A DNA stretch of 64,000 nucleotides from Eukaryota sp. GEM-RC1 (taxonomy: Eukaryota), in assembly GCA_040285855.1 (NCBI GenBank), contig JAUFOQ010000006.1, positions 434,001 to 498,000 on the forward strand, given 5' to 3'. Positions 5,353 to 28,773 of the stretch are shown piece after piece. The notes below the pieces were generated by a model, which was not told where the DNA came from, did no database searches, and saw only the letters and a program-made list of their open reading frames with translations. Numbering within the stretch: the stretch's first letter is position 1; each line of letters starts with the position of its first letter. Both the position numbers and the translations under genes were made by a program.

Positions 5353-5431
5353 CAGCTAATGAAGAAGAATTGTCTATTAGGTTAACAGATCTACCACCAA
5401 AATTACAAGCATCTATTTCTTTATATCCACC

Positions 5432-5522
5432 TGATACCGTTTGGCTACAAAGGGTAGGGAAAAGATGTTTATAAATAAAATAATATGATCTTGTAACACT
5501 TCACTAACACCTGTGGCTAACA
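5432..5522 (-). repeat. 3' LTR of family A (91 bp)
   Basis: Identical to 24820-24910; preceded on the minus strand by the polypurine tract GAAAGAAGAGAAGAGG. Confidence 0.95.
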
Positions 5523-6995
5523 TTACCTCTTCTCTTCTTTCGAGCTCCTAGTTCTCTTTGCTACAGGTGTCTTAACTTTGGAAGACGTCTTAGGAGTACT
5601 CTTACTACTGGAGGTACGTTTAAGCTTAGTGTTGTTATTACTAGACCTGTTTCTATTGTTACGAAATAAATCTAAATTGTCTAATTTTACAAAGTCACTA
5701 TACGCTTTGGTGTTCTTGATGTCCTTGATGGGAACTGATGAAGTATCACCACCAAACCAAAGTACAGTGCAGAATTCACCATCGGGTGTATCAAACCTAT
5801 CTAGGATCTTAACCACGATGTGTTCTTCAGAATTCCCAGAAGCAATTGCTCTGTGGAGATCATGATCAGCAGGTAGATCTGATTGAAAGATCTTACATTG
5901 ATGAATGCTAGTCTTACTAACATATCCAGTGATCAGATTCTTTAATGAAACAGAAGATTTTGAATCAACTGAGACAACTAGAAAAGGTCCAGTGTAGTTT
6001 CCATGGAGCTTACTAGTTTTGGCGACCTCTAACACAAGATCTCCAATCTTAAATGATTGACTAGTGTTAAACTTCTTCTTAGGCTTGAGTACTGATTGAC
6101 GATCATCTGCATCTTCTCTTTTTTTTGTTAAACGTTCTAGTTTCATTTTAATGTCGTTAATAAACGGAACATTCTTTGTCGATTTCTCAACAGCATCTAG
6201 TAAACCACTAGGATCTGCACCAGGACTTATGTCACTACCAAACATCAGTTCGTAAGGAGTATGCCCAGTTATTGAACTCTTTGTTGCGTTGATCTGCAAC
6301 TGTACAGTTGGAATGTACGTTGACCAATTGTCATAATCATTGAAGTCCACAAGAAGACGACGTAGGCTTTGCAGAACGTCTCTGTGACGTCGTTCCACCA
6401 GTCCATTACTCTGGGAGAAATGAGGAATCGAACGACTTACTTCAATCGTCAGTAGGTTACATATTGCCTCGAAAATAGCATTGGCAAACTCCGTACCATT
6501 ATCACTATGGATACAAAACGGTATTCCGAAGATAGCAATCACATCCCACACAAGACGATATGCTACTTCTCTACTGTTGAGTTCTTCGAGGGGGCTCAGA
6601 ATGGTGTATCTGGTGAAAGAATCTACAAACACCAATAGGAATTGGTTTCCATTTTGATCTTTTGGAAGTGGACCGATTGTGTCGACATTAAGTCTAGCAA
6701 AAGGTCTATCAGCCCATAGAGAACCCGTCGATTCAATTATCTTTTTTAGGGATAGGTGCCGTTTTCTGACACGCAGGGCATTGCTGAACATGTTTTATCA
6801 TGTCAGCTTTCATACTCTGGCCAAAAGTAACCACTATTGAACAATATTTCCAAACTTCGTTTCTTGTTTGGGTGTCCTGACTGGACTAAGCCATGTAGCA
6901 TGTAAAGAACTTTCTTTATTAAGCTAGATGGAATCAAAATCTTGTTCTTTGAGTTCATGTATACATTACTCATTGTACACAAAATTGAACCATTA
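5523..6995 (-). CDS. Family A integrase (HHCC, DDE, GPF motif, degenerate chromodomain); frameshift near 6800
   Basis: LHGLVQSGHP..FWP, VDTIGP, SDNGTEF, NGLVERRHR, GPFLV, and EEHIVVKILD...CTVLWFG. The stop codon abuts the LTR. Confidence 0.92.
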
Positions 6996-7079
6996 TGTAA
7001 GTATATAATAGCTAATAGCAATCATAAACTATCTTAATTTCACTCCATACTTTCGTATGTCTTCTAACACAAAGCATCA
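6996..7079 (+). repeat. 5' LTR of family B (84 bp)
   Basis: TGTAAGTATATAATAGC...ACAAAGCATCA; copies at 13074 and 19578. Confidence 0.95.
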
Positions 7080-9087
7080 ATATATATTGGCTTCTAATGC
7101 CAAGAAGAAACTCTCCCCAGATGAACTATCTGCTCTGTTTGGTGGAGTACCTTCTTCGGAAGGGTTAGGGAAACTCCCCCTCCCAAAGAGCAAGGGCTCC
7201 TCGAAGAGAACCAAGCGAAAACCCCAGCCTGCCGAGCCGGAAATATCCGACTTTGCCGTTCATCCTCCCCTCGGTGTTTCGGATACCTCCAAATCCTCTC
7301 CTGAAAAGGATGGAGGTACTTCAAAACCCTCTCCTGAAAAGGATGGAGGTACCAAATCCTCTCCTGAAAAGGATGGAGGTACTTCAAAACCCTCTCCTGA
7401 AAAGGATGGAGGTACCAAATCCTCTCCTGAAAAGGATGGAGGTACTCCTAAACCCTCTCCTGAAAAGGATGGAGGTACCAAATCCTCTCCTGAAAAGGAT
7501 GGAGGTACTCCTAAACCCTCTCCTGAAAAGGATGGAGGTACTCCCAACATCTCTCCAGAAATGGATACGAGAACTTCCCACATCAAAACTTCCCCTAACA
7601 AAGGTAAGAAGGTCGGGAAGAAGTTGGGTAGATCAAAGCCTGTCTCAAGGTCCAAATCCAGACCCAAGAAAGACAGAGGCTCCCCCATGTTCCGTAAGCT
7701 AACGAGTACGGCTACTAACAGTCTGATCAGCAAGTATATCCCATCGTATGATGAGGAAGACCTCACTTTGACAGACCTCCATGTGACTAGCCCGGAAAGT
7801 AGTAGCTCATCTCTAGTGGAAGTTAGTCCAGCTTCTCTAGTAGACGTCAGTTCAGACGACGGACTTCCCCCTCCTTCCTCCAAGTCGGTTCCCATTGAAA
7901 CTGGTGACAAAATGATTGAGCGCCTCATTCGAGAAAATCATGAGTTGAAGCTCTCTATGTTAGAACTTATCAGCGAAGTCAGGGCTGATAGGAAGAAACA
8001 ACCCTCACATCCAGTCATTCCTCCAGTGAAGCCCAAGAAAAAGGTCACAGCAGGCAGCATCCAGACTATCGGTACTGATGATCAGTTGCCAAGTATAGCT
8101 CTGCCATCGGCCTTCTCCACCTCCAGAGTCGATTTTTCCTCTGTCGAGGATCCAGCCGGATTCACCGAATCTGCAACCGGCCACATCTCTCCCCAGAACG
8201 CAGCCTTCGCCGAGCTTGAGAAAGAATCTCGCCGGGAAGCTAAGCTCAAACCCCCGTACCTCCAGAAAACGGATCCCCTTTCATGCTACAACTTCGCTCT
8301 TGAATGGAGAAGATACTTTAGAGCTAGAGGACGTGGCATTGATGCTGCTAAGCATCTCCATGACTTAGAAAACCAAGTGCAAGCTTGGCGATCAATCGCT
8401 GATCCTAAAACCATGGATGAACTCCTTTCCCCGTTTGAAGATCAACTCTCAATCAACAAACCAACTCATGGTGAGCCCCTCCATGGATTGGATCTCGCAA
8501 GAGACCTCCTCTTAAATGTGGATATCCGCGGCTTACAACTGCATGTTGATCCCTTAATCCTCACCTCCTGGAAGAATGATGGGACTATCCCCACATTCTT
8601 GAACAATTGGTACATCTGGGAACGTATCATCTTGAACACCCAGGCCGAAAATCCTCGTCAAGGAGAAGCCTTGATTGCTAACTGTATGATGGACTGGTCA
8701 CAGAACAGAAGGTTCAGGTCCAATCGGGAACGGTGGGACGATTATCTACGTCGTTTCACCAGAGTTGCCAACGCCTGCACTCTAATCCCCATCGACGAAA
8801 AGCATTCATACAGCTTTGACGTTCGTCTCATGATGAAACATTTCGCAAGGAACGTTGGAATCCCCATCGTTTTCCATGACGTCGAGTATTTTTTCAAGGA
8901 CAAGGAAATATTCAAAGAATACACCACCAACGAGATCATCAAGAACATCAAGGATCGTTATCTCAACTGGTGTAGTCAACACCCAAACTTGGATCCAGCC
9001 AGTCTTGCCTTAGCTGACCAACGTATCTTGGATGATACAAGAATCTCCACCCCTCCCCCTCACCGACAGTGGAATCGCCGACATTAG
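7057..9087 (+). CDS. Family B Gag-like ORF1
   Basis: 676-aa ORF starting inside the LTR and preceding pol; contains SPEKDGGT repeats. Confidence 0.8.
   Translation: MSSNTKHQYILASNAKKKLSPDELSALFGGVPSSEGLGKLPLPKSKGSSKRTKRKPQPAEPEISDFAVHPPLGVSDTSKSSPEKDGGTSKPSPEKDGGTKSSPEKDGGTSKPSPEKDGGTKSSPEKDGGTPKPSPEKDGGTKSSPEKDGGTPKPSPEKDGGTPNISPEMDTRTSHIKTSPNKGKKVGKKLGRSKPVSRSKSRPKKDRGSPMFRKLTSTATNSLISKYIPSYDEEDLTLTDLHVTSPESSSSSLVEVSPASLVDVSSDDGLPPPSSKSVPIETGDKMIERLIRENHELKLSMLELISEVRADRKKQPSHPVIPPVKPKKKVTAGSIQTIGTDDQLPSIALPSAFSTSRVDFSSVEDPAGFTESATGHISPQNAAFAELEKESRREAKLKPPYLQKTDPLSCYNFALEWRRYFRARGRGIDAAKHLHDLENQVQAWRSIADPKTMDELLSPFEDQLSINKPTHGEPLHGLDLARDLLLNVDIRGLQLHVDPLILTSWKNDGTIPTFLNNWYIWERIILNTQAENPRQGEALIANCMMDWSQNRRFRSNRERWDDYLRRFTRVANACTLIPIDEKHSYSFDVRLMMKHFARNVGIPIVFHDVEYFFKDKEIFKEYTTNEIIKNIKDRYLNWCSQHPNLDPASLALADQRILDDTRISTPPPHRQWNRRH
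7291..7542 (+). repeat. Eight 30/33-bp coding tandem repeats (SPEKDGGT)
   Basis: CCTCTCCTGAAAAGGATGGAGGTAC occurs 8 times. Confidence 0.95.
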
Positions 9088-11242
9088 GCATTCAAGCGTC
9101 CCTCGTCCCCACCTTTCCAAGGTATTGAAATATTCAAGAGGTTTTGCGTCAGACAGTGACGACGATGCTCACCACTCCCACAGACAGAAAAAACGTCGTG
9201 GTCGGAAATCCAGTGGTAAACACCACGCCCAGAGGTCCCAACCTACAACTCCCAGCACCCCTAATTCCAACATATGCAAATATTGTAAAGAACCAGGCCA
9301 CGCTGTAGAAATGTGTCCCAAGCCAGGATGTAAATCCTCCTCACTGTATACTGGTAATACAGACCCCCGCCGCAAGACACGCCGTTCAGGCAATCATGTA
9401 GGTAAACGTAGTAATAAATCTGATAACTATTTGTATTTTTTAGACACCTCTACATCCCCACAACCACTCAACAACCCTATCAGAGATTTAATCAATGATA
9501 CACCCAGGGTCATGAGTATAAACAGCAACCCCCACAATAATTTCATAAATTTGAATTTATTGGTTAACGATGTCCCAGTAACCGGAACCATCGATTCAGG
9601 CGCACAAATCTCAGTCATCACATCCGATTTAGCCGAATCATGCAACATGAAGATTTCACATGATACTTTATCATACATCACTGCAGATGGAAACCGTACA
9701 TCGTCCTTAGGCACAGCCAAAGGTGTTCTTGCGTTCACACTGAATAGCGCAGCTAACCTAGTGTTTGTAGATCACTCATTCCCAATTGTTACAGGTACCC
9801 AAACAATGCTCATCGGGATCGATTTATTAAACAAACTAGGGCTATTAACAGAGGACAGTCTAGTAATAAAACTGGATAAAGAACATAACATCATCATGAA
9901 AGATGAATCAGAATTCGATCACCTAATGAGCACTCCTCCATCAATGAAATCAATCAGAGACACCGATCATTCTACATCATTCAATCCAGTTGAATCAGGT
10001 TGCACAATCACTTTGGACAATCCTCTTCTAAATCAACAACTGTCATCCCTCTTAGAAGAGTTCAGGATCATATTCCAATCAGCACCACACCCCGATGGAA
10101 TTGATTGTCCACCAATGAGAATCCTCTTCCATGACGAATCAACTGTCGTTAAACGGAAACCTCGTTTCTTCAATCCTGAGAAACTAAAGATTGCCAATGG
10201 CATCTTTGATGAACTTATCGAACAAGGATTCGCCGTGTCTTCCCCCCAATCTAAGTTCTCAAGCCCTGTAGTACTCGTCACGTACCCTGATCATAGGAAA
10301 CCACGTCTGACTGGAGATTACAGCGGTACAGGTGGTGTTAATGATCTAACTGTTCCAATAGCATCTGACCTACCCAACATCGCTGATGTGATTACATTCT
10401 TGCCAGCAGCAAACTTCATTGCAACCCTCGATCTCCCAAAAGCCTTCTGGCAACTCAAAGTTGCTCCTCAAGATATGGACAAAACTGCTTTATCAATCCC
10501 TGGTAGAACAATCACATTCACTAGAGCTCCATTCGGCTTGAAAAATGTACCAGCAATTTTCCTAAACCTGATGACAGAGATCTTCGCAATGGACGGAGTC
10601 TTCATCTATCTAGATGATATCATAGTTATAGCTTCAGCGTTCGATGAATTTATAACTCGACTTCGAGCAGTTTTTAATAAAGCACAATCCGCCAGAGTAA
10701 CCCTCGGCATCCACAAGTGCAAGTTTGTAACTCACAAACACCCAATCAAGATATTAGGTAGTATCTTCCACAACAAAACCAGATTAATCGACGATGTCAG
10801 AATCAAAGCTGTTCTTGAAATTCCAACTCCCAAGACAGTGAAAGATGTCAGAAGCCTCGTAGGCTCCATCAACTACATCAGAGACTGGTTACCAGGAATA
10901 TCCAAGTTGATAGCCCCTATCATTGCCCTAACAAAAGGAAAACCAAAAGGCGTGAAATGGGAACCCCAACACCAACAAGCTTTCGACTCAATCAAAAGGT
11001 TGATAGTCAATCAAATCCCCCTCGACCTTCCTGGTCCCAATTGCATTATCCTCATTAGCGCAGACGCTTCTGATCTAGCAGTGGGAGGAGTCATTTGGAA
11101 TGAGACTACACCAAGTCCTCCAGATACTCCGCTGATAGAACGAAAGGTTCAACCTATAAGTTTCTACAGCAAAATACTGACCGAATCTCAGCTCAACTGG
11201 GCAACCATCCAGAAGAGCTTTATGCCATTCTCCCCATCCTAA
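9032..11242 (+). CDS. Family B pol: CCHC knuckle, aspartic protease, RT, start of RNase H
   Basis: CKYCKEPGHAVEMC, IDSGA, LDLPKAFWQ, PFGLKNVP, YLDD, ADASD. Frameshift near 11215. Confidence 0.95.
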   Translation: MIQESPPLPLTDSGIADIRHSSVPRPHLSKVLKYSRGFASDSDDDAHHSHRQKKRRGRKSSGKHHAQRSQPTTPSTPNSNICKYCKEPGHAVEMCPKPGCKSSSLYTGNTDPRRKTRRSGNHVGKRSNKSDNYLYFLDTSTSPQPLNNPIRDLINDTPRVMSINSNPHNNFINLNLLVNDVPVTGTIDSGAQISVITSDLAESCNMKISHDTLSYITADGNRTSSLGTAKGVLAFTLNSAANLVFVDHSFPIVTGTQTMLIGIDLLNKLGLLTEDSLVIKLDKEHNIIMKDESEFDHLMSTPPSMKSIRDTDHSTSFNPVESGCTITLDNPLLNQQLSSLLEEFRIIFQSAPHPDGIDCPPMRILFHDESTVVKRKPRFFNPEKLKIANGIFDELIEQGFAVSSPQSKFSSPVVLVTYPDHRKPRLTGDYSGTGGVNDLTVPIASDLPNIADVITFLPAANFIATLDLPKAFWQLKVAPQDMDKTALSIPGRTITFTRAPFGLKNVPAIFLNLMTEIFAMDGVFIYLDDIIVIASAFDEFITRLRAVFNKAQSARVTLGIHKCKFVTHKHPIKILGSIFHNKTRLIDDVRIKAVLEIPTPKTVKDVRSLVGSINYIRDWLPGISKLIAPIIALTKGKPKGVKWEPQHQQAFDSIKRLIVNQIPLDLPGPNCIILISADASDLAVGGVIWNETTPSPPDTPLIERKVQPISFYSKILTESQLNWATIQKSFMPFSPS

Positions 11243-11343
11243 CAGAATCGAGTCTGGCAAACTTCCTCAAGACTAGACACCTTACAATCTTCACAGATCA
11301 CAAGAACCTAGCATATCTTATCTCGTGTCCCGATAAGAACAGA

Positions 11344-13073
11344 ATGGTCAAAAGATGGCTATTCGTGCTATCAGAATACCAATTCGACATAGTACACACA
11401 TCCGGAGTAGACAACCATTGGGCAGACATGCTCTCACGGTTATGTCCTCACAACAGTTCCCCCTCGCATTCCGATGCTCAGCTCACTGATGATCCAGTAG
11501 CTACTCCAAGAATTGACCACACAAACATCCCATCAATTAACAGTCTCCGTGAAGTTGCACAAAGAGATCTCCCAATTTTCAGCAATTGGTTGAGCAGAAT
11601 CCGTTCCGAACAGCGTAAAGCAGTCGAATCAAACGAACCTCTCTTCATCAACACAACATTCAACGATAGAGTACAGTTATATCTAACTCCCAACAAGAAA
11701 ATCCTGATCCCATTGTCCCTCAGGAAATCCACCTTGCTAAACATCCATGGACTAGTTCAATCCGGTCACCCCAGTTTATCCACGTCTATCAAAACTCTGA
11801 ACGACAGCGACTACTGGTGGCCAAACATGAAAGATGATTTAACCAATCACATCAAGAACTGCCCTTCTTGCCAAAAGATCTCTCCAATCAAAAGAGATCA
11901 AATCCCTCACTCAGGTTCCCTTTGGGCTGATAAGCCCTTCTCCAAAATCAATGTTGACACTATTGGTCCATTATCCCCTGATGCTGACGGTAACCGTTTT
12001 ATTTTAGTATTCGTAGATTCTTTCACTAGATTCACAATACTAGTTCCAATAATCGATCTGAACGCCAAAGAAGCTGCTTATGCACTCGTGTTCAACGTTT
12101 GTGGTATATTTGGTATCCCCTACTCCATCCACAGCGATAACGGTCCTGAATTTGCTAACGCAACATTCAACGCAGTATGTCAACTGCTGGCAATTGAAAA
12201 CTCAACGTCCATTCCGCACTTTTCTCAATCAAACGGGCTAGTCGAGAGACGTCATCGTGATGTCTTAAGAAATCTTCAACGTTTCCTAATCGACTTCGGT
12301 ACATTCGACAACTGGGCTGAATACATTCCCTTCGTCCAACTCCAGCTTAACGCTACCAAGAACCGTTACACCGAACACACTCCCTATGAACTCATGTTTG
12401 GGTCCTCTTTTGGTCCTAAAGCAGATCCCAGTCTCATAATCAAAGCTCTAGAAGCATCCAATTTAAGCATCCCTTTTATTGAAGACCTTCAAAGAAAAAA
12501 CGAGAGAATAAAGGAAAAGCAGGAATCAGTAAGTAGCAATCAATCGTCAAAGAGACCCCCTAAGTCCAATAAATCAAATCCGTTTGGAATTGGCGATCTG
12601 ATCCTCAGATCCTCTAAGACTGCTACAAAGCTTCATGGCAAACACTCTGGCCCATTCCTGGTCATCGAGATCCCTTCACCATCATCCTTGAAAATCAAGA
12701 ACCTCGTATCTGGCGTTGAGTCCCAAGCCAGTGTACATCAATGTAAGCTGTACAACTCCGACCTTCCATCTAACCATGGTATACACCAACAAGTTGCAGC
12801 TGGTGATAAGGAAGAACATGTCATCATCCAAGTGTTGGATCAGTTCCACTCACATGAAGGACCTATGTGTTCTGTTCTGTGGTATGGCGGTGATATCACA
12901 ACAGTTGCTTCTTCTAGCATCAAAAACACTAAAGCCTATGTCGAGTTCATGAAAATAATAATAATCCTCCCTCGAGTCCCAGAAAGAGAACCTCATCCAA
13001 AGCTAAACCCAATAAAACACCTATAGCAAAGAGAACTCGCAGAAGCGTTGGCTCGAAGAAGGAGAAGAAGTAG
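11344..13073 (+). CDS. Family B RNase H end and integrase with degenerate chromodomain
   Basis: HGLVQSGHP..CPSCQ, VDTIG, SDNG, VERRHR, GPF. A frameshift near 12955 relative to the 17847-19577 copy. Confidence 0.93.
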
Positions 13074-13157
13074 TGTAAGTATATAATAGCTAATAGCAAT
13101 CATAAACTATCTTAAATTCACTCCATACTTTCGTATGTCTTCTAACACAAAGCATCA
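13074..13157 (+). repeat. 3' LTR of family B
   Basis: Follows the PPT GAAGAAGGAGAAGAAG and the TAG stop; followed by TSD ATTA. Confidence 0.95.
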
Positions 13158-13290
13158 ATTAAACAGTTGATCTCCTTGTTCTATAGCTTTAGATTGTTCT
13201 GACCTAATGGTGGATAACCAAGAGTCAAATAAAGGAAGTTTATTGTCTGTTGAGAGATTACGAAGACATTTGATAGCTAATACGTTGGAG

Positions 13291-16200: not shown

Positions 16201-16329
16201 TAAACGCCAGATGTTTTGTTCAAGTACCTGACTACTGTTGTTAGTACCAATCAAATCTAACATTTTCCAATCATTCAAAGTTGTTTGATCTATGAAATGA
16301 CTAATGCCAGCTGGATCAATTTCACACAA
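13291..16329 (-). CDS. Family A gag-pol, duplicated partial copy (gag C-term, CCHC, protease, RT, RNase H)
   Basis: CFNCGKMGHYSTDC, FDSAAS, LDLPKAFWQ, YIYD (YIDD in the other copy), TDASD, FTDHRNL. Confidence 0.92.
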   Translation of the reverse strand: MCEIDPAGISHFIDQTTLNDWKMLDLIGTNNSSQVLEQNIWRLLINKSQYSSTTTAIDAIKEIRLGSSKDPAECFDRHLRGVISVPKCSMAIIATSSDETVRTKVPASTVAELMLETLNPDKGIIALNELVLRWDHRLKTEDDKLPQFFQEVRSIWTTYKRSTAVKSLSTPSSRFPSRNRRNRPNTANKPHSQSHGTPGDVKSTVKCFNCGKMGHYSTDCRSKPQSDSDKKSNKRRSGDSRSQSFSRRFSSNKQQNNYIFRLAINNTSRDNHTTPHKYMNPLAALNTHSSKGRSTSSVETIRSLNQNLGFDSKGKGPLCIRLLINNVPVVGEFDSAASCSVISQDLIRYCEMTTTDSCIEYISANNIRATSLGSAIGVLTFNVGSLANQIHVKHTLPVVPGTKILLIGRDLQEELGLLSDDGLVIRLDKEHSTILNAESEFDERMRSPSISINRVQSKCSIKPNSTHFTIDQYGNTQLDINLFEETIDNSGCTIELDDSTRRTELLSLLSKYKQVFSEDIHPDGIDCPPMTIPFYDESVTVFRPPRRLNPEKQRIAEETFNELIRQGWAVPSTGEFSSPIVLVVYNDHRKPRLTGDFSGLDGINANTRPVKPNLPRICDVLEFLSKANFIGTLDLPKAFWQLNVSEEDVEKTSVSIPGMSISFKRACFGLKNVPAIFQNIMMEIFNVEGVFIYIYDIIVVGNTFEEFISRINLVLERAERFRVRIGLKKCRFTTSRHPNKILGSNFCNKTRCIDDKRVSALIELPAPSTLPEVRSLLGALNYVREWIPNYSNLTASINKLTRGKPKKIVWTKDHDALLTQLKSEIINHMALDLPDTDKNIIISTDASDIAVGGVIWQEENLPAPPGTPLEERRVRPVSFYSRLLNDSQQNWAAIQKDLYAILLILTESSLEGFLLSRHLTIFTDHRNLAYLISAPEKNRIVKRWIPIFSEFDFEIVHVAGTNNQWADMLSRVIDRRPVETIKSLTISNLSIKSDLTLSHEGLLYDDADYAST

Positions 16330-16345
16330 TGCTGTCCTAGCATAA

Positions 16346-19300
16346 TATTAACAGAGGACAGTCTAGTAATAAAACTGGATAAAGAACATAACATCATCAT
16401 GAAAGATGAATCAGAATTCGATCACCTAATGAGCACTCCTCCATCAATGAAATCAATCAGAGACACCGATCATTCTACATCATTCAATCCAGTTGAATCA
16501 GGTTGCACAATCACTTTGGACAATCCTCTTCTAAATCAACAACTGTCATCCCTCTTAGAAGAGTTCAGGATCATATTCCAATCAGCACCACACCCTGATG
16601 GAATTGATTGTCCACCAATGAGAATCCCCTTCCATGACGAATCAACTGTCGTTAAACGGAAACCTCGTTTCTTCAATCCTGAGAAACTAAAGATTGCCAA
16701 TGGCATCTTTGATGAACTTATCGAACAAGGATTCGCCGTGTCTTCCCCCCAATCTAAGTTCTCAAGCCCTTTAGTACTCGTCACGTACCCTGATCATAGG
16801 AAACCACGTCTGACTGGAGATTACAGCGGTACAGGTGGTGTTAATGATCTAACTGTTCCAATAGCATCTGACCTACCCAACATCGCTGATGTGATTACAT
16901 TCTTGCCAGCAGCAAACTTCATTGCAACCCTCGATCTCCCAAAAGCCTTCTGGCAACTCAAAGTTGCTCCTCAAGATATGGACAAAACTGCTTTATCAAT
17001 CCCTGGTAGAACAATCACATTCACTAGAGCTCCATTCGGCTTGAAAAATGTACCAGCAATTTTCCTAAACCTGATGACAGAGATCTTCGCAATGGACGGA
17101 GTCTTCATCTATCTAGATGATATCATAGTTATAGCTTCAGCGTTCGATGAATTTATAACTCGACTTCGAGCAGTTTTTAATAAAGCACAATCCGCCAGAG
17201 TAACCCTCGGCATCCACAAGTGCAAGTTTGTAACTCACAAACACCCAATCAAGATATTAGGTAGTATCTTCCACAACAAAACCAGATTAATCGACGATGT
17301 CAGAATCAAAGCTGTTCTTGAAATTCCAACTCCCAAGACAGTGAAAGATGTCAGAAGCCTCGTAGGCTCCATCAACTACATCAGAGACTGGTTACCAGGA
17401 ATATCCAAGTTGATAGCCCCTATCATTGCCCTAACAAAAGGAAAACCAAAAGGCGTGAAATGGGAACCCCAACACCAACAAGCTTTCGACTCAATCAAAA
17501 GGTTGATAGTCAATCAAATCCCCCTCGACCTTCCTGGTCCCAATTGCATTATCCTCATTAGCGCAGACGCTTCTGATCTAGCAGTGGGAGGAGTCATTTG
17601 GAATGAGACTACACCAAGTCCTCCAGGTACTCCGCTGATAGAACGAAAGGTTCAACCTATAAGTTTCTACAGCAAAATACTGACCGAATCTCAGCTCAAC
17701 TGGGCAACCATCCAGAAGAGCTTTATGCCATTCTCCCCATCCTAACAGAATCGAGTCTGGCAAACTTCCTCAAGACTAGACACCTTACAATCTTCACAGA
17801 TCACAAGAACCTAGCATATCTTATCTCGTGTCCCGATAAGAACAGAATGGTCAAAAGATGGCTATTCGTGCTATCAGAATACCAATTCGACATAGTACAC
17901 ACATCCGGAGTAGACAACCATTGGGCAGACATGCTCTCACGGTTATGTCCTCACAACAGTTCCCCCTCGCATTCCGATGCTCAGCTCACTGATGATCCAG
18001 TAGCTACTCCAAGAATTGACCACACAAACATCCCATCAATTAACAGTCTCCGTGAAGTTGCACAAAGAGATCTCCCAATTTTCAGCAATTGGTTGAGCAG
18101 AATCCGTTCCGAACAGCGTAAAGCAGTCGAATCAAACGAACCTCTCTTCATCAACACAACATTCAACGATAGAGTACAGTTATATCTAACTCCCAACAAG
18201 AAAATCCTGATCCCATTGTCCCTCAGGAAATCCACCTTGCTAAACATCCATGGACTAGTTCAATCCGGTCACCCCAGTTTATCCACGTCTATCAAAACTC
18301 TGAACGACAGCGACTACTGGTGGCCAAACATGAAAGATGATTTAACCAATCACATCAAGAACTGCCCTTCTTGCCAAAAGATCTCTCCAATCAAAAGAGA
18401 TCAAATCCCTCACTCAGGTTCCCTTTGGGCTGATAAGCCCTTCTCCAAAATCAATGTTGACACTATTGGTCCATTATCCCCTGATGCTGACGGTAACCGT
18501 TTTATTTTAGTATTCGTAGATTCTTTCACTAGATTCACAATACTAGTTCCAATAATCGATCTGAACGCCAAAGAAGCTGCTTATGCACTCGTGTTCAACG
18601 TTTGTGGTATATTTGGTATCCCCTACTCCATCCACAGCGATAACGGTCCTGAATTTGCTAACGCAACATTCAACGCAGTATGTCAACTGCTGGCAATTGA
18701 AAACTCAACGTCCATTCCGCACTTTTCTCAATCAAACGGGCTAGTCGAGAGACGTCATCGTGATGTCTTAAGAAATCTTCAACGTTTCCTAATCGACTTC
18801 GGTACATTCGACAACTGGGCTGAATACATTCCCTTCGTCCAACTCCAGCTTAACGCTACCAAGAACCGTTACACCGAACACACTCCCTATGAACTCATGT
18901 TTGGGTCCTCTTTTGGTCCTAAAGCAGATCCCAGTCTCATAATCAAAGCTCTAGAAGCATCCAATTTAAGCATCCCTTTTATTGAAGACCTTCAAAGAAA
19001 AAACGAGAGAATAAAGGAAAAGCAGGAATCAGTAAGTAGCAATCAATCGTCAAAGAGACCCCCTAAGTCCAATAAATCAAATCCGTTTGTAATTGGCGAT
19101 CTGATCCTCAGATCCTCTAAGACTGCTACAAAGCTTCATGGCAAACACTCTGGTCCATTCCTGGTCATCGAGATCCCTTCACCATCATCCTTGAAAATCA
19201 AGAACCTTGTATCTGGCGTTGAGTCCCAAGCCAGTGTACATCAATGTAAGCTGTACAACTCCGACCTTCCATCTAACCATGGTATACACCAACAAGTTGC

Positions 19301-19577
19301 AGCTGGTGATAAGGAAGAACATGTCATCATCCAAGTGTTGGATCAGTTCCACTCACATGAAGGACCTATGTGTTCTGTTCTGTGGTATGGCGGTGATATC
19401 ACAACAGTTGCTTCTTCTAGCATCAAAAACACTAAAGCCTATGTCGAGTTCATGAAAAATAATAATAATCCTCCCTCGAGTCCCAGAAAGAGAACCTCAT
19501 CCAAAGCTAAACCCAATAAAACACCTATAGCAAAGAGAACTCGCAGAAGCGTTGGCTCGAAGAAGGAGAAGAAGTAG
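16346..19577 (+). CDS. Family B pol (RT, RNase H, integrase), duplicated 5'-truncated copy
   Basis: ORFs 16285-17745 and 17847-19577 are nearly identical to 9032-13073. Confidence 0.92.
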
Positions 19578-19661
19578 TGTAAGTATATAATAGCTAATAG
19601 CAATCATAAACTATCTTAAATTCACTCCATACTTTCGTATGTCTTCTAAGACAAAGCATCA
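19578..19661 (+). repeat. Duplicated 3' LTR of family B
   Basis: Same 84-bp LTR followed by ATTA. Confidence 0.95.
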
Positions 19662-22600
19662 ATTAAACAGTTGATCTCCTTGTTCTATCGCTTTAGATTG
19701 TTCTGACCTAATGGTGGATAACCAAGAGTCAAATAAAGGAAGTTTATTGTGTGTTGAGAGATTACGAAGACATTTGATAGCTAATACGTTGGAGTCACGT
19801 GGAAGCATCTCAACATAGTCTGCATCATCATAAAGTAAGCCTTCATGAGAAAGGGTTAAATCACTTTTGATGGAAAGATTTGAGATCGTTAAAGATTTGA
19901 TTGTTTCAACTGGGCGTCGGTCAATAACACGTGACAACATGTCAGCCCATTGATTGTTTGTACCAGCTACATGTACTATCTCAAAATCGAACTCTGAGAA
20001 AATTGGAATCCATCGTTTGACAATACGATTCTTTTCTGGAGCAGATATTAGATAGGCAAGGTTCCTATGATCAGTAAAGATCGTCAAGTGCCTACTTAAC
20101 AGAAAACCTTCTAAACTAGATTCGGTCAGAATCAAAAGAATGGCATACAGATCTTTCTGGATAGCTGCCCAATTCTGTTGACTATCATTGAGTAAACGGC
20201 TATAAAAAGATACAGGTCTAACTCTACGTTCTTCTAACGGAGTTCCTGGAGGAGCTGGAGGATTTTCTTCCTGCCAGATCACACCACCAACAGCAATGTC
20301 GGATGCATCTGTGGATATGATAATGTTCTTATCAGTATCAGGTAAGTCTAAAGCCATATGGTTTATAATCTCAGACTTTAGTTGAGTTAATAGAGCATCA
20401 TGGTCTTTTGTCCAAACAATTTTTTGGGTTTACCACGAGTCAGTTTATTGATTGATGCAGTCAAGTTCGAATAATTCGGAATCCATTCACGAACATAATT
20501 CAAAGCACCAAGTAAACTTCTAACTTCAGGTAAGGTTGAAGGAGCAGGTAACTCAATCAACGCCGAAACTCTTTTATCATCTATGCAACGGGTTTTATTA
20601 CAAAAGTTGCTGCCCAGAATCTTATTAGGATGTCTAGAAGTGGTGAACCTACACTTCTTCAATCCAATCCGTACTCTAAAACGTTCTGCTCGTTCCAGTA
20701 CTAGATTTATTCTTGAAATAAACTCTTCAAAGGTATTGCCTACAACAATTATATCATCAATATAAATGAAAACACCTTCGACATTGAAAATTTCCATCAT
20801 GATTTGAAAAATTGCTGGTACGTTTTTCAATCCAAAACATGCTCGTTTAAAGCTAATAGACATTCCAGGTATAGACACACTGGTCTTCTCGACATCTTCT
20901 TCAGCTACATTTAGCTGCCAGAATGCTTTAGGAAGGTCAAGTGTTCCAATGAAATTAGCTTTCGAAAGAAACTCTAGAACATCACAGATCCGTGGTAAAT
21001 TTGGTTTCACCGGTCTGGTATTAGCATTAATCCCATCAAGTCCACTGAAATCTCCAGTTAAACGAGGCTTACGATGATCATTATAAACCACCAAGACTAT
21101 GGGACTGCTGAACTCACCAGTTGATGGTACGGCCCATCCTTGTCGTATAAGTTCATTAAAAGTTTCTTCGGCTATACGCTGTTTTTCAGGGTTAAGCCTT
21201 CTAGGAGGACGAAATACAGTGACACTTTCATCATAGAATGGAATTGTCATGGGTGGACAATCAATACCATCAGGATGTATATCTTCTGAAAAGACTTGTT
21301 TGTATTTACTGAGTAGGCTCAGAAGCTCCGTTCTTCTTGTAGAATCATCCAATTCTATCGTACAACCAGAGTTGTCAATGGTTTCTTCAAACAGATTTAT
21401 ATCTAATTGAGTGTTACCGTACTGATCAATAGTAAAATGTGTTGAATTTGGTTTTATTGAACATTTTGATTGAACTCTATTAATCGAAATTGATGGAGAC
21501 CTCATTCTCTCATCAAATTCACTCTCTGCATTGAGAATAGTGCTATGTTCTTTATCTAATCTAATGACTAGACCATCATCCGAAAGCAACCCCAGTTCTT
21601 CTTGCAAGTCTCTACCAATGAGGAGAATTTTTGTTCCTGGAACTACTGGTAGAGTATGCTTAACATGAATCTGGTTGGCCAAGCTGCCAACGTTGAACGT
21701 CAGAACACCTATTGCACTACCTAAGGAAGTAGCACGAATATTATTCGCTGAGATGTATTCAATACAACTATCAGTAGTTGTCATCTCACAGTAGCGTATC
21801 AAATCTTGAGAAATGACTGAACATGATGCTGCTGAGTCAAATTCTCCTACTACTGGTACATTGTTGATTAACAATCGAATACATAAAGGACCCTTACCTT
21901 TAGAATCGAACCCTAGGTTTTGGTTGAGACTACGAATTGTTTCAACAGATGATGTACTTCTACCCTTGCTTGAATGTGTGTTCAAAGCAGCCAATGGGTT
22001 CATGTACTTATGAGGTGTAGTGTGATTATCTCTAGATGTGTTATTTATTGCAAGTCTGAAAATATAGTTATTCTGTTGTTTATTGGAACTAAAACGACGA
22101 CTAAAAGATTGACTACGACTGTCACCTGATCTACGTTTGTTGGACTTCTTATCACTGTCAGATTGAGGTTTTGATCTACAATCAGTGGAGTAATGGCCCA
22201 TTTTTCCACAGTTAAAACATTTAACCGTAGACTTAACATCTCCAGGTGTACCATGAGATTGAGAATGGGGCTTGTTTGCGGTATTTGGTCGATTTCTTCG
22301 ATTTCTAGAAGGAAAACGACTGGAAGGAGTGGATAAGGACTTCACAGCTGTGGAACGCTTGTAGGTAGTCCAGATCGATCTAACTTCTTGGAAGAATTGA
22401 GGTAGCTTATCATCCTCAGTTTTGAGACGATGATCCCATCTAAGAACAAGTTCATTCAAAGCAATAATTCCTTTGTCAGGATTCAGTGTTTCTAACATCA
22501 ACTCGGCTACTGTGGAAGCAGGGACCTTTGTTCGGACAGTTTCATCACTCGACGTAGCTATTATCGCCATGGAACATTTGGGAACGCTAATTACGCCACG

Positions 22601-22867
22601 GAGGTGTCGGTCAAAGCACTCAGCAGGGTCTTTGGAGCTACCCAATCTTATTTCTTTAATTGCATCAATGGCTGTTGTAGTTGATGAGTATTGACTCTTG
22701 TTAATCAATAAACGCCAGATGTTTTGTTCAAGTACCTGACTACTGTTGTTAGTACCAATCAAATCTAACATTTTCCAATCATTCAAAGTTGTTTGATCTA
22801 TGAAATGACTAATGCCAGCTGGATCAATTTCACACAATGCTGTCCTAGCAAGGTCGAATTTGTTCAA
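19659..22867 (-). CDS. Family A gag-pol (CCHC, protease, RT, RNase H); frameshift near 20420
   Basis: ORFs 20387-22867 and 19659-20357; RT motif YIDD. Confidence 0.93.
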
Positions 22868-24812
22868 AGGAGTACCAATCCAGAGGTCATAATCGAAACG
22901 TTCAGTTTGTTTTCTGACATGACATGAATAAACTTGACAACCTCATAACGAGTGTCGTTTTTCAAGAACGGCTCTCTGTCTTTTTTCTTCTTGATCTTCT
23001 TGGGAGGAGTCACACCAGATGAGAGAATAACAGAATCATGAAGGACATTGTCAGGACGTTCATCTTCAGAGGATTGACTAAGATCGATGTGATTTTCAAT
23101 CGATGGAGACAAATCAGGAAACTTGTTTGATTGTCTATCTCTTTCTGCTTTGGTTTTGTTGGCTTCAGCAATCAACTCGTTTCTATGTCGAATTTTCGGT
23201 TCTTCGAGTTCTTTTTTCGACATGACTGTTGATTCTTGGTTCAAATCACGAGTGAAGTTCTCGGTTACACGGTAAACGTTTTCATGTTCTTCACTGGCAA
23301 CAAACCGATCAACGTCTCCAAATTCTCCATCAAACTTTCTAGTTGAGAGAATATCACGTGAACCATTAGTGAAGCGGTCAACAGATTCTGGACGGAAAGG
23401 TTCACCAGGAACGTGAGCAGAAAGGCGAGCAGTTTGACGTAGCTCTTCAGGCTTGGGAAGAAGTGTACCAACTTCTCGTAAAGCACCATGAGCAACAGGA
23501 AGGACCTTTTGAGATCCACCAATGCCACTACTGTTGGACAACCACAGAACCTTCATCAGGAACAGCTAAGGTCGTGTTTGATGCTTCAAAGGTTGACTGT
23601 GGAAGGTTTTCATATCTATGACCAACGGGAAGGTGTCTAGAACTAACAGCGACGTTGTGATACGTCTTGACTTGATTGCTCAAGCTTTGACAATACCACG
23701 CTGAGTAAGCATACGTAACGTATCTACCATCGGCATCGAAACTAGGTTCCAATGGTTCAATCAAGATACCATGACGAGGATCCCATGAGTAATCCGAGGG
23801 ATAACGATACGTATCCCCAGCATCTCCATCATACAAATCACCCAGAAAGCGTTCAATAACTTGAGGGGAAATACCTGGAGGAACGTTCCTCAACAGATAG
23901 TGCCGTCTTTTAGGCATACGGTTGCGGATGACAGGATGCCAAGGAGCGAACTTCGCCAAGTGCCACATGTCGTAATCAGAGATACCAACGCTGTTGTCTT
24001 GTGGACTTACCCAGGGTATGAGTCTATTTGGGATAGCATCCTTATGGAAGTGCTGTTCCTCAATAGACCCAACTAGCTCTTCGACTTTGTTGCCTCGATC
24101 TTCTGGAGAGAGACTCATCTTACGAGCTAGAAGTTCCTTTTCAACAAGAAGCTTCTGTTCTGCTTCGAGTCTTCTAGACTGCTCTTTGGCGAGAGATTCC
24201 TGTAACTTGCGAATCTCTTCAACCACTTCAGTTGACCTCTTTTGAGGAACTGGAACAACATCGGGAATGCTTTCTTTATTAAAACTATTTCTACGAGGGA
24301 AGAATAGGGAGAGGAGACGCTATTACAACAACATCATGACTCTCGGAATGCGGAGTACTGCTACTGTCAGCATCGCTTACTCTATACTTCTCTAACAAGC
24401 TTGGGATACGGTCTGAAATTACAGAGTGAGTATCCAAACCCACTTCGCCATCCTTGTGGGAAGACGAAGTCCTTCCATCCTCAGATGGGCATCCACCTTA
24501 AGGTTGAACATCTACAACTCTACGAGAAGTAGATTCACCAACCTCAGGTGAGATTTCCGTCACCTCCTTGTGGGAAGTGGGGCTTCTATCCTCAGATAGG
24601 CATCCGTCCTCAGACAGGCATCCATCCTCAGATGGGTCACTTTCAAATTCCGACGAGTCAACTGACTCTTCTGTCTCAGGAACCAATGGCTCCTTTCGAC
24701 GGGAAGACACTTTGGAGCTAGACTTAGATCTAGTCAAAGGTTTGTTTCTACGATTAGTTTTGTTTCCCGCTTTTGGGGGGTTAGTAGTCCTTTTCTTCAC
24801 CATCTTGGACAA
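22864..24812 (-). CDS. Family A 5' ORF / Gag N-terminal region, broken into several frames
   Basis: ORFs 24498-24812, 23528-24226 and 22864-23556 lie collinear between the 5' LTR and gag-pol. Confidence 0.6.
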
Positions 24813-24819
24813 TAATTAT

Positions 24820-24910
24820 TGATACCGTTTGGCTACAAAGGGTAGGGAAAAGATGTTTATAAATAAAATAATATGATCTTGTAACACTTCACTAACACCT
24901 GTGGCTAACA
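24820..24910 (-). repeat. 5' LTR of family A (91 bp)
   Basis: Identical to 5432-5522; followed by TSD CACC on the + strand. Confidence 0.95.
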
Positions 24911-26010
24911 CACCGTCAATGCAAAAGGATATACTTATCATGGAAGAAAGTCTACACACTGAACCTGTAAAAGAAGTTGTTTCTGTAGACACCTTAGTCT
25001 CCTTATCTAAAAAAGAACTACATAAACCTCAAAAGAGTGGAATTACTCCTCCATTTAAGAAATCGAATCTATCAGAATTAACAGAAACAGAAGAAATCCC
25101 AACATTTTGTTTAATTGATTTTAAAACCATGATTACTGATGCAAAACGACTCAATCCAAGAATTCTCAAATCACCTAAAACTGTATTGCCTAAAAAAAGT
25201 GTCGACTCTGATGATATTGAAGATGACTCTGAGGAACCAGAGGATGCTGATGTACCTAAAATCAAAGAAGAAGTTGAAGCATCGAGAGCAGAACTGTTTG
25301 CAAATCCTTTGGATAAAGAAGACAAAATAATCTTTATCAGTCTCAAATTTATCTATGCTAATTTCACTTCAACTGTTATTTTTAGTAAAAAGAACATAAA
25401 CAATACTTTTGAAAATGTCGAAATAATTGTTTGTGCTTCAGAAGAAGCCATGATTGGGGAACTTATCCAAGTTTTATGCCAAACAAAACCCAGATTGTTT
25501 ATTGGATATAACACTGATGAACTTTTGTTTCCTTTTTTGATTAAACGGTGTGAACTGTATAAGATTCAGACCAATTTTCATTTAGATAATCCATACAGAC
25601 CCTACGTACCCAACTGGTTTCATAGATGGTGTAAGCTTTGCAATTTTGGACCCTTTGTTTCTCTAGACTTGGCAAATGTTACAAAGTCTACTTATGTGTT
25701 CAAAGGTGGTAGAAGTTTGGAAAATGTTTGTTCAAAATTGTTTCGGAAACATGTACCCAATTTAATTTTGTCGTCATTAGAATTAACTACGTACTTCACA
25801 GAATTTCGAAAAGTACCAGGCATAACCGTTAATAAGGAAATAGAGAAAGAGTTTAACCTACTCGCACACAACAAGCAAACCTTCAAATTGTGGACTGATA
25901 ACGTAAAAGTAATTACTCTGGTTGATGATTTACTTCAACGAATTAACTGTCTAACTGAATTACATGAATATTTCTTTGATGAAGAAACTCAACATGTTCT
26001 AGAGCGCCAT
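24911..26010 (+). pseudogene. Middle part of the Fanzor polyprotein: inactive family-B DNA polymerase 3'-5' exonuclease-like domain
   Basis: FCLIDFKT (ExoI-like), SEEAMIGELIQVLCQTKPRLFIGYNTDELLFPFLIKRC (ExoII-like) and SLDLANVTKSTYVFKGGRSLENVCSKLF. No polymerase palm motifs. Confidence 0.75.
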
Positions 26011-28773
26011 CCAATTAAAGTGGTGAAAAAGGGATTGGAGAAAGTTATTAAAGATCAGGATAATATTGTCTTAATTAAAGGCTGTGTTATCCGAAATCAA
26101 AGAGCAACAGTAAGGGGTTCTAATTTTTGAAACATCTCCATATTTGTGAGTTTGAAACACGTGGATGTGAATTAAATTTGATGAATCCTCATTTTTTCGT
26201 CCATATCTCTTAGAATCTTCTGTTTCGGAATCAAAAGAACGAGATTTAATGTACGAACATGATTTTTTTGAGAAACGACTTCGTGAAATGGAGTTAATGT
26301 ACGAACATGATTTTTTTGAGAAACGACTTCGTGAAATGGAGTTAATGTATGAACATGATTTTGATTCGTATCCATCAGAACTTTCTGATTTGTTGGCATT
26401 AAATGAACGTAAATTAATGAAGAGTCATGATACAATGCCTGATTCTGATGATGCATTTGTTTTCCCCTACACTAAGTTTTCAGTAGTCTTACCAGATTTG
26501 GAAAAAACTGCTTAAACACGATTCTATTAGACAAGTATTGAGACGGATGTATGTGAAGAAATCAACTGGTTCTTCAATTACAGAGTCAGAACTAGAAATG
26601 TCAAGAGCAGAGGCTCAAAAGTGATTGACGATTTCCAAAAATCTTCAAGACTGGAAATGATCGAAAAGAAAAAATTGCATTTCAGTACTTGAACAATTTT
26701 TCTCCACTGTTACAGCAGTTATCTACTGAAATTGGAACAAATCAAATTTCATTTCCTGATTCTACGTCAATGTCTCCCATATTTCATTACACTGCCAAAC
26801 AAATTTCTACAAATTATGCCAACAATATGGTCAAAAATTTTCATGATTATGTTTTCAGATTCTTTAATCTGGTGACAAGAAAAAAGGTCAGACTTGAACA
26901 AATCAATGATCAAGTTGATAAGAAAGAATTGATTTCGAAATTGAATTCAGTCAGAGATTCGATTATTAATGGAAATTTTGATAACATTCCAATTGCAGAT
27001 CACGAGATTTTCCCTTATCCACGTGAAGAACTAACGTTGAGGTTTTTTGCGTATTTAAAATTTTCTTTGTTTCCAATGTTTTCAAAAAGAACATTTACTA
27101 TTTACAGAAAGCAAAGCCGACAGAGTTAATTTCTCATGCTCTGTACATCAACCGAACAATACAATCTTTGTGTTTGGTTGATGGAAAACCAATCAGTGTA
27201 AACAACCCTTTTCCAATGACGAAGACATTGATTCCTCAGCATATTCGTTCAGCAGATGAAATAAGAAAAAAGGTCTTTGATCAGGTCCTTACTGACAAAG
27301 CTGTGGCACCAACAAAATCATTTGTCTTTAGATATTCTTCAATTCTGACAGATGGAATTTCTTGTTGTTTGGTTTTAATGAGAAAAGATTTGGTTGATGA
27401 AGATGGAAATACCTTCAAAGATTTTACTGCTAAATCTCTTGGAACTTCGGAAAGATACATTCACTCTTTATCAAATGAGAATATTCACGAATTACAATTG
27501 AAAGAAAAACGAATTGTCGGTATTGATCCCAATGAATATGATTTAATGTATTGTGTTTCAGAAAAGACAGTCGATGAGCTTAAAGAAGAAGATATTTCTG
27601 AAAATAATCCACTCAAAAAACGATTACCCTCAGAAATCAGGAGTAAGAAAAGAGGAGGAATTAAGAAAAGAAAGAAACAATTGCAAGATTGGAAAAATTC
27701 GAATAATGATGTAAAATCAAAGAAAAAGGCTAAGCACAAATGGAAGAAGTTTAACTACACAGCTGGAGAAAGAGCTTACGATAGAAAATCTAAAAAATAT
27801 CGTAATTCCGAAAATAAGAAACTGAAAGAATTATCTATCGAATCACCAGATGAAACTGTCACTGAAAGACAACTTAAAGATTTTTTGGTTCTTCGTCCTG
27901 ATAATATTCTTGTAACAGGAAGAGATGTCGTTAACCAATTTTCCAATGCTGTATCAAACGGGGAAAGAAAGTCGTGTTTCAGCGACACATTTGAAACATA
28001 TATTAAAGAAGCTGAACGATATAATGTATATTTGAATTCTTTTTACGAAGATGACTGGTTTAGAAAAAGGAAATTCCAAATTTATTCAAATAACCAACGT
28101 TCGGAAAAAAATATGCTGGAACGCTTCAATTTAACATATGGACCTCCAGAAGACGTTGTCATTGGCTATGGGGATTGGAGCTCAAAAGGTAAAACAAGAA
28201 AGGGCAAAACCTCTACTGTTAGAGGAGTGGAAATCCGTAAAATGTTAAGAAGATATGGATACCAAATATTTCTTGTTGATGAATACAGAACAAGCAAGTG
28301 TTGTTCCAAATGTGCTGAGGAAAAATCAACTTTCGTAGAATGTGAAAATGTTTCAGAACTAAAGGTTCTTGGTCCAAAAGGTAAGAGACAGCTAAGAAGG
28401 AAGAAGAGAAAGTTAAGAAGAGAAATTTTGCTTAAAAACAAACAAGATCCTCTAAACCAACGGGATTTTGGAAGCAGAGTGGGAGGTGAAGCAGAAGTCA
28501 TTGGAAGAAGAAGCTAAATCCACACCCTGGGGACTGGTAAGGTGCTCAGATGCTGAGTGTGGTACTTATTGGAATAGAGACCTAAATTCTGCCATTAATA
28601 TCTATTCCATCATTGAAGCAACGATCAATGGTCAAGGTAGGCCATCCGCTCTCGAGAGATCTAAAACTCAAACAACAGATCTCGAGAGTGGTAAGGATAC
28701 TTTGGCGAGAGACCAGAAGAAGAAGAAGACTGCGACCAAAAAGAAGAAAAACTTCAACAGGAAAGACTCGTAA
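26011..28773 (+). pseudogene. Fanzor1 (eukaryotic TnpB-like RNA-guided RuvC nuclease), frameshifted
   Basis: KVVKKGLEKVI..IKGCVIRNQRA..NF; YTAKQISTNYANNMVKNF..RFFN; PFPMTKTLIPQHI; SILTDGISCCL; VGIDPN (D at 27525); FRKRKF..NQRSE; IGYGDWS; LVDEYRTSKCCSKC (E at 28281); LVRCSDAECGTYWNRDLNSAINI (D at 28579); GRPSAL. Confidence 0.92.
26246..26363 (+). repeat. 48-bp coding tandem repeat (LMYEHDFFEKRLREME, about 2.4 copies)
   Basis: Directly visible duplication. Confidence 0.9.

What the first reader, a model, noticed from the sequence alone, without database searches (positions are those of the whole stretch)
24810..24821. Gypsy family A has a different 12-bp palindrome at the same position
CAATAATTATTG spans the terminal CA of the 5' LTR on the minus strand. 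The two families have dissimilar LTR sequences and diverged proteins, yet both show CAATA-xx-TATTG with a different self-complementary centre (AT versus TA). That pattern suggests selection for palindromy rather than for sequence.
Basis: partly seen in the sequence, partly recalled or inferred. Interest (0 to 1): 0.7.

Follow-up and report, generated by a model that had tools for sequence, protein, structure and literature searches.

The report
Palindrome replaces retrotransposon primer site
A gypsy-type jumping gene carries a perfect 12-letter palindrome exactly where such elements normally bind a host tRNA to start copying themselves, and distant relatives keep that site palindromic while its letters change, so these elements likely start DNA synthesis by pairing two copies of their own RNA instead of using a tRNA.

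Summary
Confirmed. CAATAATTATTG (24810-24821) starts at the terminal CA of the 91-bp 5' LTR of a minus-strand Ty3/Gypsy element (A), where a tRNA primer-binding site belongs; nested family B has CAATATATATTG there. The closest proteins carry NCBI labels of Skoliomonas-type metamonads. Two sequences sharing 10 of 12 letters prove little, so I surveyed relatives. Gag N-termini of 12 of 18 hand-picked related families back-translate to CA-N8-TG palindromes with coupled changes (shuffle mean 0.57; protein only). In metagenome DNA, an RT tree separates 13 loci with mostly TGG-type sites and no palindrome from 15 loci plus A and B; 14 of those 15 carry a 10-16 bp palindrome reaching the LTR-end A, one more is uncertain (background 0.23%). 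The centre stays self-complementary and the hairpin is unstable, which points to pairing between two molecules. Likely mechanism (untested): RNA dimer, RNase H nick, partner fragment as primer. Closest precedent: the Conserved Hairpin Site of fungal GalEa Copia elements, whose second arm is absent here. This scan noted the same feature before in at least six other genomes.

The parts
24810..24821 (.). 12-bp perfect palindrome of family A; first two bases on the minus strand are the terminal CA of the 5' LTR, the other ten occupy the primer-binding-site position
24820..24910 (-). 5' LTR of family A element, 91 bp, TG...CA
5432..5522 (-). 3' LTR of family A element, 100% identical to the 5' LTR; not followed by the palindrome
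24911..24914 (+). target-site duplication CACC of A (other copy 5428-5431)
5526..5541 (-). polypurine tract of A, followed by the pol stop codon and then the 3' LTR
24801..24803 (-). likely Gag start codon of A, 6 nt downstream of the palindrome; an in-frame TAA lies inside the palindrome, so it is non-coding in the Gag frame
   Evidence: sister family begins with the same MVKKR start
19659..24803 (-). gag-protease-RT-RNase H region of A, broken into several frames by a stop and frameshifts
5523..6995 (-). integrase region of A (core domain, then a weak chromodomain-like tail), cut off from the rest by the B insertion
6996..7079 (+). 5' LTR of family B element, 84 bp, inserted in the integrase region of A; target duplication ATTA (6992-6995, 13158-13161)
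7078..7089 (.). 12-bp perfect palindrome of family B at the same position; read as QYIL in the B Gag frame
7057..13026 (+). gag (ATG inside the 5' LTR) and pol of B in three overlapping frames; order protease, RT, RNase H, integrase
13074..13157 (+). 3' LTR of B (second copy 19578-19661 in the duplicated segment)
16346..22850 (+). tandem copy (99.6%) of 9843-16342, holding parts of B and A

Best explanation
The palindrome stands in place of the tRNA primer-binding site of a Ty3/Gypsy retrotransposon and likely lets two copies of the element's RNA pair with each other and prime reverse transcription without a tRNA. Shown: position at the LTR end, no TGG-type site in A, perfect symmetry kept through changing letters in relatives. 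Inferred: the two RNAs packaged in one particle form a 12-bp antiparallel duplex that ends on the LTR's terminal CA. Inferred by analogy with Tf1: the RNase H of the element's RT nicks one strand near the end of that duplex, and the short 5' fragment (R-U5 plus about 8 bases) gives the 3'-OH that is extended on the partner RNA into minus-strand strong-stop DNA. One RNA has only one copy of the site (it lies outside the repeated LTR), so full pairing needs two molecules. If plus-strand synthesis then copies this primer, the site is regenerated only if it equals its own reverse complement, which would explain perfect symmetry and paired turnover of letters.
For: Geometry in A and B. The 12-mers do not fold as hairpins (0 kcal/mol) but form intermolecular duplexes of -9.6 (A) and -10.2 (B) kcal/mol; central bases of a hairpin would be loop and free to vary, yet the centre is AT, TA or CG in 17 of 17 DNA junctions. 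The symmetry reaches the LTR-terminal A in 17 of 17 and the C in 6 of 17, with 3-6 bases between that A and the centre, as a primer duplex abutting the LTR end would. RT tree: one branch (SH-aLRT 100, quick tree, unrooted) separates 13 loci without an LTR-end palindrome from 15 loci plus A and B with 14 clear cases; 63 of 27210 CA dinucleotides in all 79 loci start such a palindrome. Near clade: 12 of 18 family N-termini compatible, background 4-5% per 15-residue window, shuffle maximum 5; I..I and V..T occur, the uncoupled forms are incompatible and were not seen among the 12; the site is read in two different frames and is non-coding in A. No Tf1-type complement in the LTR (longest 5 nt in A, 6 nt in B) and no downstream second arm (best 6 of 9, 5 of 9). 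Tf1 shows that an RT RNase H can cut an RNA duplex to make the primer (PMC7175516, passages); Ty1 RNA is dimeric in particles (PMC3592414, passages).
Against: No step of the mechanism was observed; no reads, RNA ends or cDNA were available. The duplex is AU-rich and weak, and in a 70-nt context the dimer gain is not beyond shuffles (12-13% of 500 shuffles reach it). The 12 peptide hits are back-translations: the DNA of those families was not seen, Arg and Tyr-Val also have non-palindromic codons, the families were picked by hand after seeing the N-termini, they are related, and one is family B itself. Only A, B, L010, L013 and L016 have the LTR end fixed by two LTR copies; the others rest on polypurine tract, contig-end repeats or nearness to the gag start. 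B and most near families have TGG 8 nt after the LTR end, which I cannot test against host tRNAs. Dimerisation alone does not prove priming.
Confidence: 0.55

Rival explanations
1. The palindrome is a dimerisation or packaging signal (like a retroviral dimer initiation site or the Ty1 PAL motifs), or serves the plus-strand transfer, and priming uses some other, unidentified primer.
For: Intermolecular duplex is favoured over a hairpin. Palindromes are known dimer signals in HIV-1 and candidates in Ty1 (PMC3592414, passages).
Against: Those signals come in addition to a tRNA site and lie away from the LTR edge (PMC5445492, passage). Here the symmetry reaches the terminal A in 17 of 17 junctions and no other primer site was found.
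Confidence: 0.22
2. The site acts as double-stranded DNA: a symmetric CA...TG site cut or bound by an integrase dimer or a host factor to trim the cDNA end or to control transcription.
For: A and B read CA-N8-TG, and the near clade keeps CA[AG]TA-NN-TA[TC]TG, which looks like a protein-recognised site.
Against: Only 6 of 17 junctions have the full CA...TG; length (10-16 bp) and letters vary widely, which symmetric protein binding would not allow; the primer problem stays unsolved.
Confidence: 0.08
3. A tRNA or tRNA fragment still primes: either an internal tRNA segment pairs with the palindrome, or a TGG site lies 8 nt behind the LTR end.
For: B has TGG right after the N8 block, and Gly or Ala codons follow in most near families. 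Priming from an internal tRNA site is known for Drosophila copia (PMC3592414, passage).
Against: A has TGT there, as must the two families ending in Val; the residues after the site differ between the close subfamilies B1 and B2; T is followed by A, C, G or T in the metagenome loci; a tRNA complement has no reason to stay symmetric. Host tRNA genes were not available to test.
Confidence: 0.08
4. Intramolecular fold-back: the palindrome forms a small hairpin, alone or inside a larger U5-leader stem, and is cut to self-prime.
For: B can form a U5-leader stem leaving the site mostly unpaired (z -2.5 for one 70-nt window).
Against: The 12-mer hairpin has 0 kcal/mol; A shows no significant fold (z -0.11, B -1.41 in 91-nt windows); a hairpin cannot select for a self-complementary centre.
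Confidence: 0.05
5. Chance or inherited AT-rich sequence without function.
For: 12-bp palindromes are common in this AT-rich window (30 against 22 expected); A and B share 10 of 12 letters.
Against: 14 of 15 distant loci have it against a 0.23% background, with different letters.
Confidence: 0.02

Closest known systems
[quoted passage not shown] 2017, PMC5445492; passages and section 10 read, supplements not opened)
   Same: No tRNA site; a palindrome that begins at the last A of the 5' LTR; two common variants that differ by a paired change; proposed to replace the primer site; mechanism unknown.
   Different: Other superfamily (Gypsy domain order here). GalEa has a 10-bp palindrome plus a conserved complementary second arm 12-41 bp downstream; here 12 bp from the C, and no second arm (best 6 of 9 in A, B and ten loci), which removes the hairpin reading.
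Self-priming of Tf1/Tf2 and Tj1 (PMC7175516 and PMC4600332, passages; the Levin 1995 and 1996 papers were not held)
   Same: Ty3/Gypsy, no tRNA primer, primer supplied by the element's RNA after an RNase H cut (shown for Tf1, inferred here); nearest relatives carry chromodomains.
   Different: [quoted passage not shown]
Skipper elements of dictyostelids (PMC5006619, passages)
   Same: Chromodomain-bearing protist Ty3/Gypsy without TGG site and without an LTR complement; a novel priming mode was suggested.
   Different: They have a polypyrimidine stretch, not a palindrome.
Retroviral dimer initiation site and Ty1 PAL motifs (PMC3592414, passages)
   Same: Self-complementary RNA that can join two genomes.
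   Different: Present besides a tRNA site, typically in a hairpin loop, not fixed to the LTR end.

Membership tests
Ty3/Gypsy LTR retrotransposon | pol order protease, RT, RNase H, integrase | tested here: met
Ty3/Gypsy LTR retrotransposon | direct LTRs TG...CA, short target duplication, polypurine tract | tested here: met
tRNA-primed LTR element | TGG-starting site within a few bases of the 5' LTR | tested here: not met
   A has none; B has TGG only 8 nt after the LTR end
tRNA-primed LTR element | complementarity to a host tRNA or tRNA fragment | not testable with these tools
   no host genome held; no tRNA gene in the window
Tf1/sushi self-priming group | site complementary to about 11 bases upstream in the 5' LTR | tested here: not met
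   longest exact complement 5 nt (A), 6 nt (B)
Tf1/sushi self-priming group | RNase H cut of an RNA duplex makes the primer | not testable with these tools
   needs particles or purified RT
chromoviruses | chromodomain after the integrase core | tested here: inconclusive
   no Pfam Chromo hit in A or B; own profile scores the A tail at E 0.012, B at 0.1, best relative 3e-5, in a 10-protein search; nearest outside relatives P0236 and P0376 pass Pfam Chromo
fungal GalEa CHS | palindrome including the last base of the 5' LTR, no tRNA site | tested here: met
fungal GalEa CHS | complementary second arm 12-41 bp downstream | tested here: not met
   best 6 of 9 (A), 5 of 9 (B)
fungal GalEa CHS | Ty1/copia domain order | tested here: not met
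Skipper | polypyrimidine stretch after the 5' LTR | tested here: not met
retroviral dimer initiation site | palindrome in a stable hairpin loop, in addition to a tRNA site | tested here: not met
   no tRNA site; local fold not above shuffles

The most novel reading that the evidence does not exclude
A broad, undescribed branch of Ty3/Gypsy elements in protists primes reverse transcription in trans: one genomic RNA of the packaged dimer is cut inside a palindromic duplex and serves as primer for the other, a third priming mode beside tRNA priming and Tf1-type cis self-priming, reached independently by some Copia lineages.
Probability: 0.5. Interest if true: 0.8.

Novelty: new variant of a known kind. 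Interest (0 to 1): 0.62.

Why it matters
How LTR elements without a tRNA site start reverse transcription is open for GalEa, Skipper and Tcn2-5 (PMC5445492, PMC5006619, PMC7175516; passages). This case strips the signal to one short palindrome with natural paired variants, which makes a clean test: break symmetry, restore it, or mix two non-symmetric but mutually complementary RNAs. If priming in trans holds, it ties genome dimerisation directly to priming and frees the element from host tRNA supply. It also matters for annotation, since tools that require a tRNA site would miss or downgrade this group.

Tried and rejected
No whole genome is held for the window. No Rfam match at 24600-25000. 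No tRNA gene in the window. Palindromes of 8, 10 or 14 bp do not explain the six N-termini without a hit, bar two weak 8-bp fits. A conserved U5-leader stem was considered: plausible in B, not supported in A. TAA read as glutamine was considered because of a stop early in A gag and rejected, as neighbouring frames of 600-1000 codons are open under the standard code. Literature: nine searches on palindromes, primer sites and self-priming listed no paper describing a palindromic primer site in Ty3/Gypsy elements; most listed papers were seen only as listing, subscription journals and Repbase reports are not searched, and supplements were not opened. Look-ups of earlier scan notes by place and by sequence were empty.

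Full report
Observation. The 12-mer at 24810-24821 is a perfect palindrome. It overlaps by two bases a 91-bp repeat (24820-24910) whose identical partner lies at 5432-5522; on the minus strand both read TG...CA, the pair is flanked by CACC, and a purine tract precedes the 5522 end. Between them lie gag, protease, RT, RNase H and integrase in Ty3/Gypsy order, in broken frames. So the palindrome starts at the terminal CA of the 5' LTR and its other ten bases sit where the tRNA primer-binding site normally is. A second element (B) is inserted in A's integrase region with an ATTA duplication and has CAATATATATTG in the same place (7078-7089). A and B proteins are 44-57% identical; their LTRs do not match. 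Twelve-base palindromes are not rare in this window (30 seen, 22 expected), but 4 of 4575 plus-strand CA dinucleotides start one, and two of the four are these sites.

Host. Of 111 proteins related to B's RT region, those above about 40% identity carry NCBI labels Eukaryota sp. GEM-RC1, TZLM1-RC or TZLM3-RCL, free-living soda-lake metamonads (Skoliomonas) assembled from Nanopore reads (bioRxiv 10.1101/2023.05.03.539051, passages). The window is likely from such an organism. No genome, run or close DNA relative could be fetched.

Near relatives, through protein. B's Gag frame begins inside the LTR and reads the palindrome as QYIL, so predicted Gag N-termini of other families report on the same DNA. 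From 57 models with at least 350 residues upstream of the protease I picked 18 family representatives by hand, using the tree and the longest upstream stretch. Twelve hold, at residues 6-11, a peptide that back-translates to a CA-N8-TG palindrome: QYIL (2), QYVL, TIIIG, SIRIG (3), TVITG (2), TVRTG, TVRTV, TVITV. Background is 18 of 342 and 73 of 1726 windows; shuffling the N-termini gives a mean of 0.57 and a maximum of 5 in 20000. All twelve fit CA[AG]TA-NN-TA[TC]TG. The second and fourth residues change together (I..I or V..T); the mixed forms are not palindrome-compatible. On the RT tree the implied centre differs within four separate groups and the arm state differs in at least two places (quick tree). 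The site is read in two frames and is non-coding in A, so the constraint is on nucleotides. Limits: these are back-translations, the families are related, and one is B itself. Of the six misses one is A's sister family, whose ATG lies behind the site as in A; some others probably start at internal methionines.

Distant relatives, through DNA. An alignment of compact, mostly chromodomain-bearing Gypsy polyproteins that scored next in a profile search fetched 79 metagenome loci. Twenty-eight were placed on an RT tree with A and B. One branch (SH-aLRT 100; tree unrooted, quick method) separates 13 loci from the rest. Eleven of those 13 show a TGG-type site at the LTR end, two are undefined, and none has a palindrome there. 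Of the 15 loci on the side of A and B, 14 carry a 10-16 bp perfect palindrome starting at or just before a CA upstream of gag, and L003 is uncertain. Only 63 of 27210 CA dinucleotides in all loci start such a palindrome, true sites included. The LTR end is fixed by two copies in L010, L013 and L016, and inferred in the others. Aligned on the centre, the five inner pairs each occur as three or four different Watson-Crick types; symmetry reaches the LTR-terminal A in 17 of 17 junctions and the C in 6.

Mechanism. Shown: no tRNA-type site in A, no Tf1-type complement in the LTR (5-6 nt), no GalEa-type second arm, no polypyrimidine stretch. Computed: the 12-mers do not fold alone (0 kcal/mol) but pair with a second copy at -9.6 and -10.2 kcal/mol; the surrounding leader has no significant fold in A and at most a weak one in B, and the dimer gain in context is not beyond shuffles. 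A self-complementary centre cannot be selected in a hairpin loop, and one RNA holds the site once, so pairing between two molecules is the simplest reading. Inferred: since the duplex ends on the LTR boundary and no other primer site is seen, it most likely makes the primer. Tf1 gives the chemistry, an RNase H cut in an RNA duplex between bases 11 and 12 (PMC7175516, passage); Ty1 particles hold dimeric RNA (PMC3592414, passage). I put 0.55 on priming in trans, 0.22 on dimerisation or strand transfer with another primer, 0.08 each on a DNA-level site and on tRNA-derived priming, 0.05 on fold-back and 0.02 on chance.

Comparison and novelty. The element is a member of Ty3/Gypsy; chromovirus membership is inconclusive. 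It is not a member of the Tf1 self-priming type, the GalEa CHS type or the Skipper type by the tested features, though it likely works like Tf1 in chemistry and resembles CHSeq1 of GalEa in position (PMC5445492, section 10). Nine literature searches listed no description of a palindromic primer site in Gypsy elements; the library lacks most subscription journals and Repbase, and I opened no supplements. This scan's own notes record the same feature in 23 findings from at least six other genomes, Gypsy and Copia; they are unchecked AI notes, read after my near-clade test, and they prompted the wider DNA survey but are not counted as evidence. Verdict: real, selected for symmetry, a new variant of tRNA-independent priming signal with one partial published precedent and an untested mechanism; interest 0.62.

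Noticed in passing
window 9843-16342 and 16346-22850: 6.5-kb tandem repeat at 99.6% identity covering B pol, the B 3' LTR and part of A gag-pol; a real duplication or a long-read assembly artefact.
   Followed up: no
window 7057-7089: B Gag appears to start at an ATG inside the 5' LTR and reads through the palindrome; 12 related families start 5-10 codons upstream of the site, so R-U5 is partly coding.
   Followed up: partly
window 5432-5522, 6996-7079: Very short LTRs (91 and 84 bp); metagenome relatives estimated at 64-222 bp. In A the pol stop codon abuts the 3' LTR.
   Followed up: partly
window 5526-5900 (minus): Degenerate chromodomain-like tail after the integrase core, conserved between A and B.
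   Followed up: partly
window 24877-26130: ORF with a family B DNA polymerase exonuclease domain directly beside the A 5' LTR; next ORFs 26629-28517 have no Pfam hit in the part scanned and may belong to another mobile element.
   Followed up: no
window 50732-52774 and 40928-41893: hAT-type transposase ORF with palindromic subterminal repeats near 50693-50752 and 52935-53007, and a PIF1-like helicase fragment.
   Followed up: no
window 47289-47324, 47901-47919: Several ACAATATATTGT-type palindromes in AT-rich repeated DNA, with no sign of an LTR in the stretch read.
   Followed up: partly
proteins P0157, P0161, P0162: One related family (start MSVSP) has a long Gag model with no palindrome-compatible peptide; it may start downstream of the site like A, or be an exception.
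   Followed up: no
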